A stretch of 64,000 nucleotides of DNA from Candidatus Eiseniibacteriota bacterium (GTDB lineage: Bacteria > Eisenbacteria > RBG-16-71-46 > JABDJR01), in NCBI GenBank assembly GCA_963762255.1, contig CAVXKA010000001.1, positions 608,001 through 672,000 on the forward strand, written 5' to 3'. Below the pieces are notes generated by a model. It ran no database searches and was not told where the DNA came from. It saw only the letters and a program-made list of their open reading frames with translations. The translations under genes and the position numbers were made by a program. Shown one piece after another: positions 1 through 5,475 of the stretch (its first letter is position 1; each line of letters starts with the position of its first letter).

Positions 1-204
1 TACTCCGCGTGTCATCGGGACACCCCCGCGATCACTTGATCTTTTCGCTCGCCCTCGGCACCGGGCTTCGCCTCGCGGAGATCGTCGGCCTCAACGTGGG
101 CGACGTGTTCACCGCTGACGGCAAGCCGCGCGGTCGCATCAGAGTCAGGCGCGAGATCGCCAAGGGCGGCCGCGCCGGCGACGTGTTCCTGCCGGACGCG
201 CTGA
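1..204 (+). pseudogene. Tyrosine recombinase 5' fragment (copy 1; runs off window start)
   Basis: Encodes HPRDHLIFSLALGTGLRLAEIVGLNVGDVF...EIAKGGRAGDVFLPDAL (box I Arg, catalytic Lys region); similarity to the copy at 4638-5226 stops at ~204. Confidence 0.85.
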
Positions 205-307
205 GGCTACGAGGATGCCTGACGCGGATTAGATCACGCCCGGAGGGGCCGGCGTCTGGGGACCACCGAACTTGTACAAGCCAGAGAATCACCATGGCCG
301 CAAAGTT

Positions 308-1219
308 CTATTCGAGGCCAATCTCCAACTGCTGGTCGCCACCGCTTCTTGCCCGGAAGAGTCCCAATACTCGCTGAGCGTCGGGTTCAGCGACAATGAC
401 GGTCACGACCTTCTTGGGGTCATTGAACATCATGCGCGATTCACCAAAGTAGCGCTGCTCCTCATGATCGATCTTGAGGTTCATCTTCCCGACCGAGCGT
501 CCCTTACTCTCCCAGGCAACCTGTGGTGCCCCTCGATCGCTTGGGCGCCCAGGCAATGCCGCCGGTCGCAGATCCCCTAAGCGCAGCCCGATGTTAGATA
601 CAGCACGACACGGCCAGAGCTCTCCTTCGTCTGCGTCGCCAGCCCGCCATTCCCAGACCACAACTGCGCCATGCCAAATGTCAATTTCGAACACCCTCGC
701 CGCAGCAGCCCAAAAGGAGACCCCGTATAGTCTGGCAAGGTAGTTCAGGTGCCCCCAAGATAGGCCGCCTTCGAGCAACCTACTCCGCCAAGCATCGCGG
801 GGCATCAAGAGCGCAGCCGCAAAGGTATCGCAGAGTCTCTCAACCGAGGTACGTTCGGCCTCACTCTCTAGCAGCCCGTGCTCCATGGCAACAGCGAGCT
901 TTGTAGTTCTTGCTATCTCCAAGTGCCCGATCTCGTGCGCTATGGAGAAACGCCTCCGTGCCGGGCTTGCAGACGAATTGACCACTGCGACATAACCACC
1001 CGCGGATACATTCAGGAGGGCATCGACGTGCAACACTCGGTACTCGACAATCAGTCCTCGTGTCTTCGCGAATGCCTCAACGTCGAGTGCTCTTGTCGAG
1101 TCCCAACCACTCCTAATCGCTTCCGCTAATCTCTCTACGGCCTCTCGCGCATCCACAACACCCATTTCTCTCGCGAGGTTTACGGCGACCCCTGATTGCC
1201 ACACAACGCGTCGCGCCAC
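308..1219 (-). CDS. ImmA/IrrE (DUF955) family metallo-endopeptidase
   Basis: RRRFSIAHEIGH (HExxH) and downstream ERLCDTFAAALLMP; starts 3 bp after the stop of the upstream kinase fusion. Confidence 0.9.
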   Translation of the reverse strand: MARRVVWQSGVAVNLAREMGVVDAREAVERLAEAIRSGWDSTRALDVEAFAKTRGLIVEYRVLHVDALLNVSAGGYVAVVNSSASPARRRFSIAHEIGHLEIARTTKLAVAMEHGLLESEAERTSVERLCDTFAAALLMPRDAWRSRLLEGGLSWGHLNYLARLYGVSFWAAAARVFEIDIWHGAVVVWEWRAGDADEGELWPCRAVSNIGLRLGDLRPAALPGRPSDRGAPQVAWESKGRSVGKMNLKIDHEEQRYFGESRMMFNDPKKVVTVIVAEPDAQRVLGLFRARSGGDQQLEIGLE

Positions 1220-1222
1220 GAC

Positions 1223-3029
1223 CTAGATCTCACTATCAAACAGGGACCCATCCGACGTCCCGCTCCCCAGTTGATCCTGACTAACCCAGTCAATGTAGAG
1301 CTTCTTCCAGGACTCCTCTGACAGAGGAGATGCCGAGTCCCCGCGCGCAGCCGACGCATCAAACGCGGCCCGCAAGTCCTCCCAACCCCGCTTCTTCAAA
1401 TCAGCATAGGCACGATAGGGCAGTTCCTTCCTTCTCGCGAACGCCCTCAAGTGCCTCAGGCTCTCGCGATATGTATTCTCAAAGCGCTGGTCCTTTCCGG
1501 ATTGGTCCCTCAGCAACTCAGCTGGTGCCACGCCCAAACCCTTCGCAACCCGCCGTAGCTGCACCGTTGAAATCGTGGCCAATTGCTCAGGCCGCGTTTC
1601 CACGTTCGCAAGCGAAGCTGCGTCCAAGCCTGAACCGAGGGCCAGCTGCTCCAAGCTCATTTCTTGCTCCTCACGCAGGGATCGAATACGACTTCCAAGC
1701 CTCAAGCTGTACTCGCGCTCTCGCGATCTTCGGGTCAAGTGGAACTTCATACGGTTCTCCTTGAAGAAGGCGTCAAGGTGACACGACAGCTCTTCAAAGG
1801 TGTTGAACTGTATCTCGCCCAAGATCCTCGTCGGCACTCCCCGCAACATGCGGGAGATTGTGACGTGTTCTGAATGCAGAATGACCAAAGGTACGCCTGC
1901 GTTTGCAGCAATCTCTGCCTCAATGCCAACTCCATGACTGGGGTCATCCGCGAAGATGCAGACGAGATCGGAACTTGCAACCCGCTCCCGGTCGATCCAG
2001 TAGACCTCAGTCGGTGTCAAGGATCGAGCTCCGACCGGATGCGTATGCTCACCAGGAACGTAGAGGGCGAAGTCCGCGCCTTCGCATGCTCCTCTAACGA
2101 TTTCCGTCACCTCGACAGCTCGCGTTTCCTGTTCCGGCGTGGACTGCGTCAGAGGACACGCAAAGTACGCCCGGAATGGTACGACGGTTGGAATGGCAGC
2201 CCCTAGCAGATCAAGGCAAGCCAGAGCCGATGCCGGTCGGTCAAGGGAGTTCTTGGACAGCAGAGATTTCGTCATATCCAGGGCAGCAGTCCAAACCGGC
2301 CCCTTCATGCGCAGCTTATCATCAAAGGTGATGGAATGCGCGATCTTCGCGGCATTGATTTGCTCCGAGTCTGTCGCGGCAGCGAATATCTCGGTACCAT
2401 GCAGCAGATAGTAGAGCGTCGCCCCGAAGGAATAGAGATCGGCAGGATATCCATAATGGTCGTGCTCGATGTACTCCGGGGCAGCGTATCGCCTCGTGCC
2501 CACAAACTTGTTGCCAGATTGAGTGACACCCAGGTCTCTAGCGAGCGGATCACCCCGAAATCGAGCAGCCGCAGCCGGCCGGTTGAGTCAATGTGAATGT
2601 TTCTCGGTTTTATATCCCGGTGAAGACGTCCGGTAGAATGCAGGAACTCAATTGCATCGAGTATTTGGGAACAGAACTGGAGGAGGAATTCTTCTGTTGG
2701 CTCGTGGGCTAATCGCCAAGTATGTAGATTGTCACCATCGAGCCATTCCATCACGAGGAACGGCTTGTCGCTCACATCGAGATGATGCACGCGCACGAGA
2801 TTGGGGTGTGACAAGCGAGACCCTGTTTCGAACTCCTCTTCTTGAACCTACTCCACTGAGCTGGTTCAGCAAGAATGGTGTCATTATATATCTTGAGAGC
2901 TAGAAGGCCCCCCGTCTTGGCGAATTGCAGTTCCCGTTTGGCGGCGACCTTCCATACTGCTCCGGCGCCCCCCTCGTCGATCTTGTCCAAGAGATTGAAA
3001 TCAGATAAGGAGATCGCAATCGCTGTCAT
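1223..3029 (-). CDS. Ser/Thr kinase - Rcl/DNPH1-like nucleotide N-glycosidase (NDT fold) - XRE HTH fusion, ~600 aa (two frameshifts, ~2835 and ~2535)
   Basis: ATG at 3029 with GGAGGAGG RBS. Kinase motifs across three frames: IDEGGAGAVW, ALK, HRDIKPRN, DFG, GTRRYAAPE, DLYSFG. Then in one continuous frame: RAYFACPL...YVPGE...DRERVASSDLV...PSHGVGIEAEIA...GVPLVIL and LGSRIRSLREEQEMSLEQLALGSGLDAASLANVE. Confidence 0.8.
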
Positions 3030-3199
3030 TGAAGTCCGCCTCCTCCGGGTTTGACTTGTGGCCGCGCTGCGGTTCTGGTCAACCGGCTCGAGTCTGCCTC
3101 GTCCCCCCTGTCCTCCCGAAAACCCCATCCAACGATTTCACTCGCCAATTCCCTGTTGATTCTACACCCGGACGCTTTGCGGGGTCAGGCCGGCCGATC

Positions 3200-3271
3200 G
3201 CTGAATGAGCGCACCCATGTTCCCCTTGACTCCCTCGCCTCTCAGCTCCCCAATGTCCTCGGAGGTGACCC
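3200..3271 (+). promoter_or_regulatory. Conserved leader/promoter and RBS of recombinase copy 2
   Basis: CTTGAC-TCCCTCGCC...GCTCCCCAATGT...GGAGGT aligns with CTTGAACTCCATCGCC...GCTCCCCAATGT...GGAGGT upstream of copy 3 (4563-4637). Confidence 0.55.
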
Positions 3272-4637: not shown

Positions 4638-5226
4638 ATGCCGTACCTGTCGCCGCCGACGTTGACGAAAGCCGAGCAGGAAACCCTACTCCGCGTGTCG
4701 TCTGATCCACCCCCGCGACCACCTGATCTTCTCCCTCGCCCTCGGAACCGGTCTTCGCTTGTCGGAGATCGTCGGCCTCGAACGTGGGCGACGTGTTCAC
4801 CGCGGACGGCACGCCTCGAAGCCGAATCCGGCTCCGCCACGAGATCGCCAAGGGCGGCCGCGCCGGCGACGTGTTCCTGCCGGACGCGCTGGGGCCGAAG
4901 CTCGTGAGGTTCTGGGGGTACAAGGTGCGGTCGGGCGAGTCGCTTGACTGCCAGCCGCGCCGCTCTTCTGCAACCAGTCCGGCCACCGCATCTCCAAACG
5001 CCGCGTCCAGATGGCATTCAAGACCTGGCAGGAGCGCGCGGGGTTCGACCGGATCTACGGGTTTCATGCGTTGCGCCACAGCGGCCGTGACGAATGTGTA
5101 CCGGGCGTCCGCGACCTCTTCCTCGCCCAACGGTTCGCGAGGCACGCGTCGCCGCTGACGACCACCATCTACACGCACATCGGCGACGAAGAACTCATGC
5201 AGGGCGTTCGCACTTTGACCTGCTAG
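4638..5226 (+). CDS. Small tyrosine recombinase/integrase (~195 aa, catalytic domain only; several frameshifts)
   Basis: Joined frames: MPYLSPPTLTKAEQ...GTGLRLSEIVGL...AKGG...FHALRHS...AQRFARHASPLTTTIYTH...TC*; R-K-HxxR-H-Y all present. Confidence 0.85.
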
Positions 5227-5240
5227 CCGCCCACGGCCGG

Positions 5241-5249
5241 TGGTAGAAT
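5241..5249 (+). promoter_or_regulatory. Extended -10 promoter element (TGG-TAGAAT)
   Basis: Matches TGnTAnnnT, 15 bp after the recombinase stop; no well-spaced -35. Confidence 0.45.
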
Positions 5250-5253
5250 TCAT

Positions 5254-5355
5254 GGTCCTGAGTGGTGGCGAGCTTCATTGCTGCCCACCGATTCCCCCAG
5301 GTTGGGGCATCACTCGGGAACGCCGGGCCTAGCTCACGCTGGGCCCGTTCGTTTT
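5254..5355 (+). ncRNA. Candidate structured small RNA (three-way junction plus terminator)
   Basis: 12-bp stem TCCTGAGTGGTG (5256-5267) / CATCACTCGGGA (5308-5319) with two G-U pairs encloses two small hairpins; preceded by an extended -10 and followed by a terminator hairpin. Confidence 0.45.
5324..5355 (+). terminator. Intrinsic terminator-like hairpin
   Basis: CGGGCCTAGC-TCAC-GCTGGGCCCG followed by TTCGTTTT. Confidence 0.6.
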
Positions 5356-5367
5356 GCCGGCGACTGG

Positions 5368-5475
5368 CTCATGGCGCAGCGGTTCGCAAGGCGCGCGTCG
5401 CCGCTCACGACCACCATCTACACGAATCCCTCGGACGAGGAGCTGTTCGGCAGGGTGAGGGATCTGGTCTGCTGA
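5368..5475 (+). pseudogene. Tyrosine recombinase 3' fragment (copy 4)
   Basis: LMAQRFARRASPLTTTIYTNPSDEELFGRVRDLVC* parallels LAQRFARHASPLTTTIYTHIGDEELMQGVRTLTC* of copy 3. Confidence 0.85.

What the first reader, a model, noticed from the sequence alone, without database searches (positions are those of the whole stretch)
1..5475. Array of repeated integrase fragments alternating with defence-type cargo: a possible cassette-accretion platform
Seen: four diverged, co-oriented pieces of one small tyrosine recombinase gene. 5' fragments lie at 1-204 and 3272-3508, a full copy at 4638-5226 and a 3' fragment at 5368-5475. The unit repeats as [cargo on minus strand]-[~220-240 bp divergent spacer whose last ~70 bp are conserved]-[int 5' end]. 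Both 5' fragments lose clear similarity within ~20 bp after a 35-bp block that is identical in all three copies despite synonymous divergence elsewhere: GAGATCGCCAAGGGCGGCCGCGCCGGCGACGTGTT. That block can fold as TCGCC-(AAG bulge)-GGCG-loop-CGCC-GGCGA. Known: SSV1/pTN3-type integrases carry att inside their own gene and leave int(N)/int(C) fragments; integrons accumulate defence cassettes. Inference: related mini-elements repeatedly insert at or recombine through the integrase gene, stacking cargo. Caveat: the two breakpoints are near but not identical, and the 5' and 3' fragments do not add up to a whole gene.
Basis: partly seen in the sequence, partly recalled or inferred. Interest (0 to 1): 0.8.

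Follow-up and report, generated by a model that had tools for sequence, protein, structure and literature searches.

The report
Stacked stumps of a phage recombinase gene
The start of the window is a decaying stack of small phage-derived modules, each made of defence-type genes beside a small recombinase gene; the leftover stumps of that gene mark where new modules were recombined in, which is an unusual variant of a known kind of hotspot.

Summary
Window 1-5475 carries two 5' stumps, one full-length but broken copy (5 indels) and one 3' stump of a 194-aa tyrosine recombinase gene. The 35-bp block is identical in all three window copies. The genome has five such clusters and two intact copies.

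The gene encodes a Xer-like protein with a catalytic domain only. It is phage-associated: a terminase large subunit lies in 40 of 80 related loci and a large serine integrase in 14 of 80. Cargo is defence-type: CapP-like protease, PD-T4-6-like kinase, dGTPase and a broken methylase.

Stump ends cluster in two zones but not at one position. The proposed hairpin is neither significant nor conserved. Family-wide synonymous constraint over the block is weak. Within this genome an 89-nt tract is 93-99% identical between copies that are otherwise 66-80% identical, which looks like gene conversion. Three true 3' stumps are colinear with what follows them, and none with what precedes them.

Best reading (0.5): homology-anchored stacking of modules at a phage accessory hotspot. 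An SSV-type or integron-like site-specific platform is not supported, but it is not excluded. No reads could be examined.

The parts
1..207 (+). 5' stump 1 of the small tyrosine recombinase gene (aa 17-84 lie inside the window; its ATG is 48 nt left of the window)
   Evidence: tblastn aa 1-84, 87%; alignment
153..187 (+). 35-bp block, copy 1 (codons 68-79, the lysine-bearing hairpin motif EIAKGGRAGDVF)
   Evidence: exact match
308..1219 (-). cargo: M78 / CapP-like metallopeptidase, 303 aa
   Evidence: PF06114 E 5.7e-14; PADLOC capP E 1.1e-28
1223..3038 (-). cargo: Ser/Thr kinase fused to a Cro/C1-type HTH, broken into three reading-frame pieces (two frameshifts)
   Evidence: Pkinase hits in two pieces, HTH_3; PADLOC PD-T4-6 E 1.2e-9, capH E 4.6e-7
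3039..3271 (.). divergent spacer; its last ~55-72 nt are the conserved leader of the recombinase gene
   Evidence: alignment of seven copies
3272..3508 (+). 5' stump 2 (aa 1-79), in-frame TAG at codon 14
   Evidence: tblastn; sequence; alignment
3473..3507 (+). 35-bp block, copy 2
   Evidence: exact match
3557..4384 (-). cargo: 275-aa protein with a weak HEPN-like match, below the Pfam cut-off
   Evidence: PF18730, 20.3 bits against cut-off 27.1; no PADLOC hit
4385..4637 (.). divergent spacer with the conserved leader at its right end
4638..5226 (+). full-length copy of the recombinase gene, a pseudogene with five indels
   Evidence: alignment to two intact paralogues; ORFs in three frames
4841..4875 (+). 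35-bp block, copy 3
   Evidence: exact match
5227..5364 (+). conserved 138-nt 3' trailer shared with two other clusters; holds a terminator-like hairpin at 5324-5347
   Evidence: 96% and 92% identity to C1:467926 and C2:1151539; terminator scan
5350..5475 (+). 3' stump (aa ~154-194 through the stop codon), closest to the allele of the intact copy at C1:1408 kb
   Evidence: tblastn; 85.6% over 104 nt; alignment
5890..8433 (-). neighbour: N6/N4 DNA methylase gene broken into several frames. Its last 700 nt recur beside the array on contig 2.
   Evidence: PF01555 in two separate ORFs; 81% over 701 nt to C2:1152157-1152851

Best explanation
The region is a decaying stack of small modules from a family of temperate phage-like elements. 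Each module holds defence-type genes on the minus strand, a divergent promoter region, and a 194-aa Xer-like tyrosine recombinase gene that has a catalytic domain only.

In related elements this gene sits between two variable cargo regions: one upstream, and one between its 3' end and the terminase genes. I infer that modules are added by ordinary, homology-guided recombination and gene conversion between related copies. The best-conserved stretches of the recombinase gene (about nt 200-290 and nt 410-515) act as portable homology arms. One crossover falls in a stump or gene end carried by the donor, so a whole [gene + cargo] unit is added. The displaced end of the resident gene stays behind as a stump, still joined to its own old neighbour. 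Founder stumps must have arisen by illegitimate joins. Later deletions trim the stack.

The recombinase itself need not be involved. Shown: the anatomy, the phage association, the non-random breakpoints, the conversion-like tract, and the colinearity of 3' stumps with what follows them. Inferred: the recombination pathway and the order of events.
For: (1) Recurrence. There are five clusters in this genome, with 5' stumps upstream and 3' stumps downstream of a full copy in two of them. In the genome-contig loci, 17 of the 69 that hold a full copy have at least one 3' stump downstream.

(2) Phage context. terL was hit in 40 of 80 loci, terS in 19 and a large serine integrase in 14. In several loci the gene's stop lies 45-130 nt from the terL 3' end. 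In others, 0.5-8.7 kb of cargo is wedged between them.

(3) Conversion-like tract. The paralogues are 93-99% identical over nt 202-290, against 66-80% elsewhere. Family-wide synonymous conservation there is only 1.03-1.25 times expectation.

(4) Three true 3' stumps are colinear across their stop codon with a full-length gene plus its downstream DNA elsewhere. One example is the first stump on contig 2 plus the next gene, which matches L024 at 84% over 376 nt. No true stump is colinear across its left boundary.

(5) By inspection, the eight copies of one relative are mosaics that switch partner near nt 500-515, and the 3' end co-varies with the downstream flank.

(6) A derivative at C1:70914-71998 keeps the leader, the last 27 nt of the gene and two cargo genes at 95% identity. 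It has lost the gene body and a 3' stump at imprecise junctions.

(7) Precedent. In P2/P4 defence hotspots, pseudogene remnants of core genes are read as remnants of intense recombination (PMC13586616, passages).
Against: Junctions between gene and non-gene DNA cannot be made by homologous recombination alone, so founder events need another process. Their clustering is not explained by homology alone and may need selection or a site preference: 8 of 11 5'-stump ends lie in nt 200-290 (binomial p about 8e-5), and 26 of 36 3'-piece starts lie in aa 138-170 (p about 2e-10). Those tests assume independent events and a uniform null. Relatives are not independent, and HSP ends are fuzzy.

Two intact copies keep every catalytic residue: R40, K71, H142, R145, H168 and Y177 are invariant in 7 of 7 aligned proteins. 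An active recombinase is therefore on hand. The colinearity count is small (3 against 0). No reads were available, so no polymorphism or circular form could be looked for.
Confidence: 0.5

Rival explanations
1. Site-specific cassette platform. The small recombinase acts on a site inside its own gene (around nt 200-290) and/or at its 3' end. Circles of [cargo + promoter + 5' part] or [3' part + cargo] are inserted there, each bringing a replacement gene end. The logic resembles phage 21/e14 at icd (recalled) or Mx8 intP, and works in the manner of an integron.
For: Breakpoints of both polarities cluster around the block. 5' stumps end at nt 208-267, and reciprocal pieces start at about nt 200, 218 and 248, in several phyla. 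Two short solo copies of the tract lie outside any gene in this genome (nhmmer E 1.7e-12 and 1.8e-8). One of them precedes the same FGE-type cargo gene and full copy that a 5' stump precedes on contig 2. The catalytic residues are intact. 29 intervals of 120-5162 nt lie between gene ends, many holding one ORF. An att inside an int gene has precedents: Mx8 (PMC6070905, passages) and SSV-type integrases (PMC7253208, abstract).
Against: No single junction position was found; the range is nt 108-290. The hairpin has z = -1.7, and its arms are kept in 13 of 45 blocks. Synonymous constraint is weak family-wide. No significant solo site was found in any of the 80 related loci. 5' stump arrays are rare outside this genome: 2 of 69 loci. 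3' stumps go with the following gene, not the preceding one: 3 against 0. Comparison of two copies of the same cargo shows imprecise deletions.
Confidence: 0.25
2. Nested self-targeting. Whole mini-elements of [cargo + gene + trailer] insert into the recombinase gene of a resident element and split it. The result is an onion of paired 5' and 3' stumps around the youngest full copy, with the middle of the target lost.
For: The order 5' stumps, full copy, 3' stumps is the one this model predicts. In the window, 5' stump 2 and the 3' stump are both closest to the same allele, the intact copy at C1:1408 kb (82.4% and 85.6%). On contig 2, the 5' stump and the second 3' stump are also of that allele type.
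Against: Numbers of 5' and 3' stumps do not match: 2 against 1 here, 1 against 3 on contig 2, and mostly 3' stumps only in relatives. About 200 nt of the target is always missing. With only two allele types in the genome, the pairing could be chance. No shared sequence was found between element ends and the target.
Confidence: 0.12
3. Assembly artefact. The repeats are strain variants of one locus collapsed or concatenated by the assembler, and the frameshifts are consensus errors.
For: Genes in this island carry many frame breaks, and no reads could be examined.
Against: The pieces differ by 15-30% and have different unique neighbours. The same architecture is seen in other clusters of this assembly and in 17 loci of other public assemblies. 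Outside the islands the contig has a median 82% cover by long host-type ORFs, and two paralogues are intact.
Confidence: 0.03

Closest known systems
Defence hotspots of temperate phages and satellites (P2/P4 type)
   Same: Variable, often defence-type cargo lies between conserved phage genes, is exchanged by recombination, and has remnants of core genes left inside the hotspot (PMC9122126, search listing and start of abstract; PMC13586616, passages).
   Different: The anchoring gene here is a 194-aa recombinase with a catalytic domain only, lying next to the terminase genes. Its own ends pile up as ordered stumps on both sides. The hosts are soil and sediment phyla (record titles), not enterobacteria.
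SSV-type 'suicidal' integrases of archaea (SSV1, pTN3, pT26-2)
   Same: Integrase pseudogene pieces of different origin lie beside captured DNA, and hybrid genes are assembled from pieces (PMC7253208, abstract).
   Different: Those pieces are int(N) and int(C), which flank the element and add up to the gene. Here the order is reversed, the pieces do not add up, no single att position was found, and the protein is Xer-like and bacterial.
Myxophage Mx8 intP with attP inside the gene
   Same: A bacterial case in which recombination within the int coding sequence gives the gene a new 3' end (PMC6070905, passages).
   Different: Mx8 integrates into chromosomal attB sites, and IntP is a large protein (its size is recalled). 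Here the displaced 3' ends lie 0.1-3 kb downstream of a complete gene, and no attB was identified.
Integrons
   Same: A tyrosine recombinase gene sits beside an array of short units that are mostly single genes, separated by a repeated element.
   Different: The protein is far below the integron-integrase cut-off. The repeated element is a copy of the gene's own 3' end, has no conserved palindrome, and goes with the following gene rather than the preceding one.
Xer recombinases (XerA, XerC/D)
   Same: These are the best sequence matches. The protein aligns to the catalytic domain of XerA residues 132-308 (E 2.4e-17), and all catalytic residues are present.
   Different: There is no N-terminal core-binding domain. 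Scores are 51-87 bits against cut-offs of 220-335. The gene is phage-borne and multi-copy.

Membership tests
SSV-type (suicidal) integrase system | Integration splits the gene into int(N) and int(C) that flank the element and together make one gene | tested here: not met
   5' stumps end at aa 79-89 and 3' stumps start at aa 148-164. The order is 5' stumps, full copy, 3' stumps.
SSV-type (suicidal) integrase system | One recombination site (att) at a fixed place inside the ORF | tested here: inconclusive
   Breakpoints cluster but range over nt 108-290. Recombination itself was not assayed.
Integron | IntI-type integrase | tested here: not met
   TIGR02249 scores 47-50 bits against a cut-off of 265; NF011946 scores 22-32 against 435.
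Integron | attC: an imperfect palindrome that follows and travels with each cassette ORF | tested here: not met
   Hairpin z = -1.7, arms kept in 13 of 45 blocks. 0 true stumps are colinear with the preceding DNA, against 3 with the following DNA.
Integron | Array of short cassettes next to the integrase gene | tested here: met
   29 intervals of 120-5162 nt lie between gene ends in this genome and 16 related loci. This is a resemblance of form only.
Xer family (XerA/XerC/XerD/XerS) | Score above the curated family cut-off, and a two-domain protein | tested here: not met
   Scores are 51-87 bits against cut-offs of 220-335. Only the catalytic domain aligns. Length is 194 aa.
Tyrosine recombinase superfamily | Catalytic R-K-H-R-H/W-Y set and the Phage_integrase domain | tested here: met
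   PF00589 at 70.6 bits against a cut-off of 27.1. R40, K71, H142, R145, H168 and Y177 are invariant in 7 of 7 proteins.
FimB/FimE-type tyrosine DNA invertases | Family score, and inverted repeats around an invertible segment | tested here: not met
   Scores of 19-46 bits against cut-offs of 221-222. Window 1-7000 holds only weak inverted repeats, 71-80% complementary.
Phage/satellite defence hotspot | Variable cargo between conserved phage genes, with defence genes among the cargo | tested here: met
   0.05-8.7 kb of differing DNA lies between the gene and terL. Cargo includes capP-like, PD-T4-6-like and dGTPase genes.

The most novel reading that the evidence does not exclude
A widespread family of phage-borne recombinases with a catalytic domain only uses its own gene as a landing pad. 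Copies of the gene's 5' and 3' ends act as the recombination sites of mobile cargo units. Each insertion hands the resident gene a new end, so the array is a record of captures. This would be an integron-like gene-capture system of phages in Eiseniibacteriota, Acidobacteriota, Gemmatimonadota and others.
Probability: 0.12. Interest if true: 0.8.

Novelty: new variant of a known kind. Interest (0 to 1): 0.42.

Why it matters
If the best reading is right, the locus shows how a short conserved gene can serve as a portable homology arm that lets phages of little-studied soil phyla swap and pile up defence genes. The stumps then give a readable order of acquisitions.

It also flags an undescribed, multi-phylum family of minimal Xer-like recombinases. 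These sit beside the terminase genes of elements that already carry a large serine integrase, and their role is unknown. Candidates are multimer resolution, cyclisation or cargo capture.

If the rival reading is right, this would be a new gene-capture system. Either way the window copy itself is dead, and part of its cargo is broken.

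Tried and rejected
Rejected readings and searches that found nothing:
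- Hairpin or attC-like fold of the block: not significant and not conserved.
- tRNA or known RNA at the clusters: 0 tRNA genes and 0 Rfam matches at gathering score in five cluster regions.
- The roughly 190-nt repeat upstream of every cluster as a structured RNA: covariation term -0.12 kcal/mol.
- Family-wide overlapping constraint on the block: synonymous observed/expected is only 1.03-1.25.
- Solo copies of the tract in relatives: none significant in 80 loci.
- Direct repeats bounding the intact module at C1:467 kb: none of 14 nt or more that is convincing.
- Sigma-70-like promoters in the spacers: 1 site in 5.6 kb, no more than in shuffles.

Sequencing runs: none was listed for window 1-6000. 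Misassembly, circles and excision could therefore not be tested.

First genome-contig scan with one protein: no relative was confirmed. It was repeated with an alignment.

Literature. Searches found no description of this recombinase family or of such stump arrays. This covers only the held library. The supplements of PMC13586616 may list core-gene pseudogenes in more detail.

The Mx8-type and SSV-type models were worked through on paper and rejected on the order of the pieces.

Not run: structure prediction, complex prediction, the search for homologous proteins and the search of protein representatives. They were judged not decisive.

Counting caveats. Rows labelled 'C' that are parts of frameshifted full copies (G000_C1:612705, L054:10069, G000_C2:1148831, L049:2559) were dropped before I counted 3 against 0. 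Breakpoint lists were compiled by me. One contig-edge piece (L070) and internal pieces (L024 aa 27-129) were left out.

Full report
WHAT IS THERE. The window is G000:C1:608001-672000 of a 4.14-Mb genome with 66-67% G+C in three contigs. With an intact paralogue as query, tblastn finds four co-oriented pieces at the window start:
- aa 1-84 at window -48 to 203;
- aa 1-79 at 3272-3508;
- a full-length copy at 4638-5226;
- aa 154-194 at 5350-5472.

The first piece is cut by the window edge only. Its ATG and leader lie just to the left. The 'full' copy carries five indels against the two intact paralogues and is read in three frames. The second stump has a TAG at codon 14. All window copies are therefore dead.

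The 35-bp block is exact in the three window copies, with none in 100 shuffles. It is exact in 5 of the 8 genomic matches at up to 3 mismatches.

THE REST OF THE GENOME. The same gene forms five clusters:
- C1:467 kb: an intact copy.
- The window.
- C1:1408-1410 kb: an intact copy on the minus strand, plus a short solo piece.
- C2:1146-1152 kb: a 5' stump, a full copy with one frameshift, then three 3' stumps.
- C2:1428 kb: a short solo piece near the contig end.

No further piece lies between 467 kb and the window. All clusters sit in islands of atypical composition and low host-type coding density, while the contig as a whole has a median 82% cover by long host-type ORFs. A separate repeat of about 190 nt lies upstream of every cluster in the same orientation.

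WHAT THE GENE IS. The intact product is 194 aa long and matches only the Phage_integrase catalytic domain. A profile of seven homologues aligns to the catalytic domains of XerA (residues 132-308, E 2.4e-17), XerD, XerH and IntI4. R40, K71, H142, R145, H168 and Y177 are invariant in 7 of 7 proteins. All NCBIfam hits fall far below their cut-offs: Xer families at 51-87 bits against 220-335, integron integrase at 47-50 against 265, and FimB/E-type invertases at 19-46 against about 221. It is a tyrosine recombinase without a core-binding domain and belongs to none of these named families.

CONTEXT IN RELATIVES. All 41 genomes of the same class that were searched gave some tyrosine-recombinase match. 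Close homologues and stumps of this gene occur in about a dozen of them.

An alignment-based scan of species-representative genomes kept 80 loci. Their titles name Candidatus Eisenbacteria/Eiseniibacteriota, Acidobacteriota, Gemmatimonadota, Nitrospirales, Myxococcota, Phycisphaerae and Dehalococcoidia MAGs. The neighbours are phage genes:
- terminase large subunit (PHROG E down to 1e-113), hit in 40 of 80 loci;
- a terminase-small-like DNA-binding protein, in 19 of 80;
- a RusA-like resolvase and an exonuclease, in 13 of 80 each;
- a large serine integrase, in 14 of 80.

In the closer subfamily the gene converges on terL. In several loci its stop lies 45-130 nt from the terL 3' end. In others, 0.5-8.7 kb of unrelated DNA is wedged between the two. 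Homology between copies of 80-93% identity often stops at the start or stop codon. The gene is therefore a conserved island between two variable regions of a temperate-phage-like element that has another integrase.

CARGO. In and beside the window:
- a CapP-like M78 peptidase (PADLOC E 1.1e-28);
- a Ser/Thr kinase of PD-T4-6 type fused to a CapH-like HTH, broken by two frameshifts;
- a weak HEPN-like protein, below the Pfam cut-off;
- a defence-type dGTPase just upstream (E 3.2e-69);
- a broken PF01555 DNA methylase downstream.

On contig 2 the cargo is an FGE-sulfatase-type lipoprotein, two unknowns and an RRM protein. 'Defence-type cargo' is fair for the window but not for every module.

BREAKPOINTS. 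In this genome the 5' stumps lose similarity between about nt 238 and 290 of the gene. Two of them show faint similarity beyond the obvious break, so the ends are fuzzy. In relatives, 5' stumps end near nt 108, 170, 172, 208, 215 and 236. Pieces of the opposite polarity start near nt 106, 200, 218 and 248.

For 3' pieces, 26 of 36 start in aa 138-170. All run exactly to the stop codon and then diverge. Both clusters are far from uniform (p about 8e-5 and 2e-10). Those tests assume independent events and sharp ends, and neither assumption is safe. There is no single junction position.

IS THE BLOCK A SITE? Evidence within this genome:
- The block is the best-conserved 35-nt window of the 5' part: 3 minority bases against a median of 40.
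- It is part of an 89-nt tract (nt 202-290) that is 93-99% identical between full-length paralogues, which are 66-78% identical before it and 74-80% after it.

Evidence across the family:
- Across 48 genes of the subfamily, synonymous conservation over the block is only 1.03-1.10 times expectation. It peaks at 1.25 just downstream.
- The central codons of the block vary freely.
- The hairpin has z = -1.7, and its arms survive in 13 of 45 distinct blocks.
- A profile of the tract finds two solo copies in this genome (E 1.7e-12 and 1.8e-8) and none that is significant in the 80 related loci.

A sharp island of near-identity between diverged paralogues, without matching family-wide constraint, is what gene conversion among copies in one genome produces. 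Conversion would also keep short relics alive.

WHICH NEIGHBOUR DOES A STUMP BELONG TO? This test separates an integron-like unit (ORF plus the stump that follows it) from a displaced-allele unit (stump plus the DNA that follows it).
- The first 3' stump on contig 2 and the next gene are colinear, at 84% over 376 nt, with the 3' end of a full gene and its downstream gene in L024.
- The third stump there shares its 138-nt trailer with two full copies.
- A stump in L041 is colinear with a full gene and its flank in L026.

That gives three true stumps colinear across the stop codon and none colinear across the left boundary, after dropping four rows that are parts of frameshifted full copies.

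A second copy of two contig-2 cargo genes at C1:70914-71998 (95% identity) keeps the leader and the last 27 nt of the gene. It lacks the gene body and the intervening stump, and its junctions are imprecise. By inspection, the eight copies in one relative are mosaics that switch partner near nt 500-515, and the 3' end co-varies with the downstream flank.

READING. These results fit stacking by homology-guided recombination between related elements at a phage accessory hotspot. A donor that already carries a stump can recombine through it with the matching part of a resident full gene. This adds a whole [gene + cargo] unit and leaves the resident's end behind with its old neighbour. Founder stumps need illegitimate joins, and later deletions trim the stack. 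Remnants of core genes in P2/P4 defence hotspots have been read the same way (PMC13586616, passages).

I put this at 0.5. Unexplained are the clustering of gene/non-gene junctions and the near absence of long stumps. The truncated proteins may be harmful, or the recombinase may after all prefer these zones.

RIVALS.
- Site-specific platform (0.25). It is kept alive by the clustering of breakpoints of both polarities around the block, by the two solo copies, by an intact enzyme, and by precedents for att sites inside int genes (Mx8, PMC6070905 passages; SSV-type, PMC7253208 abstract).
- Nested self-targeting insertion (0.12). It predicts the observed order, and it fits the fact that 5' stump 2 and the 3' stump of the window are both closest to the same allele. 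But the numbers of stumps do not pair up.
- Assembly artefact (0.03). It is unlikely given the divergence of the pieces, their unique neighbours and their recurrence in other assemblies. It could not be tested with reads.

COMPARISON AND NOVELTY. The system works like a phage or satellite defence hotspot with core-gene remnants. It is not an SSV-type system, because the order and sum of the pieces are wrong. It is not an integron, because both the integrase test and the attC test failed. The recombinase family, its position beside the terminase genes of elements that also have a serine integrase, and the ordered stumps on both sides were not found described in six literature searches of the held library. 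I rate it a new variant of a known kind, of moderate interest.

Noticed in passing
window 23334-23471 and 25605-25658; also C1:462932-463118, 602753-602844, 604825-605008, 1412640-1412805; C2:1144606-1144793, 1145584-1145728, 1160037-1160099, 1427751-1427941, 1435924-1435997: A repeat of about 190 nt lies upstream of, and co-oriented with, every recombinase cluster. It has a 21-nt inverted repeat 100 nt apart, a third direct copy of the arm, and an A+T-rich conserved core. It has no Rfam match and no covariation, so it is more likely a protein-binding or promoter region than an RNA.
   Followed up: partly
G000 C1:70914-71998: A derivative of the contig-2 array. The recombinase leader is joined to the last 27 nt of the gene, followed by two cargo genes at 95% identity with no stump between them. 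The gene body and the stump were removed at imprecise junctions.
   Followed up: yes
window 15083-16681 (+): A large serine recombinase of 532 aa (Resolvase, Recombinase and zinc-ribbon domains) lies inside the same island. It is only about 25% identical to the serine integrases that accompany the small recombinase in 14 related loci.
   Followed up: partly
window 5890-11627 (-) and C2:1152157-1153106: A DNA methylase and a helicase-like restriction gene are broken into many frames. The contig-2 copy keeps only the two ends, which lie 4.9 kb apart in the window and are contiguous there. That means a deletion on contig 2 or an insertion in the window.
   Followed up: partly
L064:10001-13987 and L068:560-1107: In two relatives the recombinase gene is interrupted at about aa 147 by an insert that ends in a 20-nt perfect palindrome. 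The insert is 3.4 kb in one and only about 30 nt in the other. It looks like a different mobile element and its footprint.
   Followed up: no
L018:4140-4241 and 10659-10790: Direct repeats of about 100 nt (91% identical) bracket 6.4 kb that ends with the recombinase gene. They are possible att sites of a small integrated module. A weak copy of the ~190-nt repeat lies 200 nt to the left.
   Followed up: partly
L058-L062, L066, L069, L071 (one relative): One relative holds eight full-length copies (85-92% identical) in eight loci spread over seven contigs, most of them short. Six of the eight loci have a large serine integrase nearby. These may be unplaced variants of one element or extrachromosomal forms.
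   Followed up: no
G000 C1:605079-606650 (-), 1.35-2.9 kb left of the window: A defence-type dGTPase (PADLOC E 3.2e-69) and a 291-aa unknown form the module upstream of the first 5' stump.
   Followed up: partly
window 127-161 and 202-238 (same in all copies): The gene holds two similar stretches 75 nt apart in direct orientation, with the same first 7 and last 12 bases. They are the two best-conserved 35-nt windows of the 5' part. Their meaning is unknown.
   Followed up: partly
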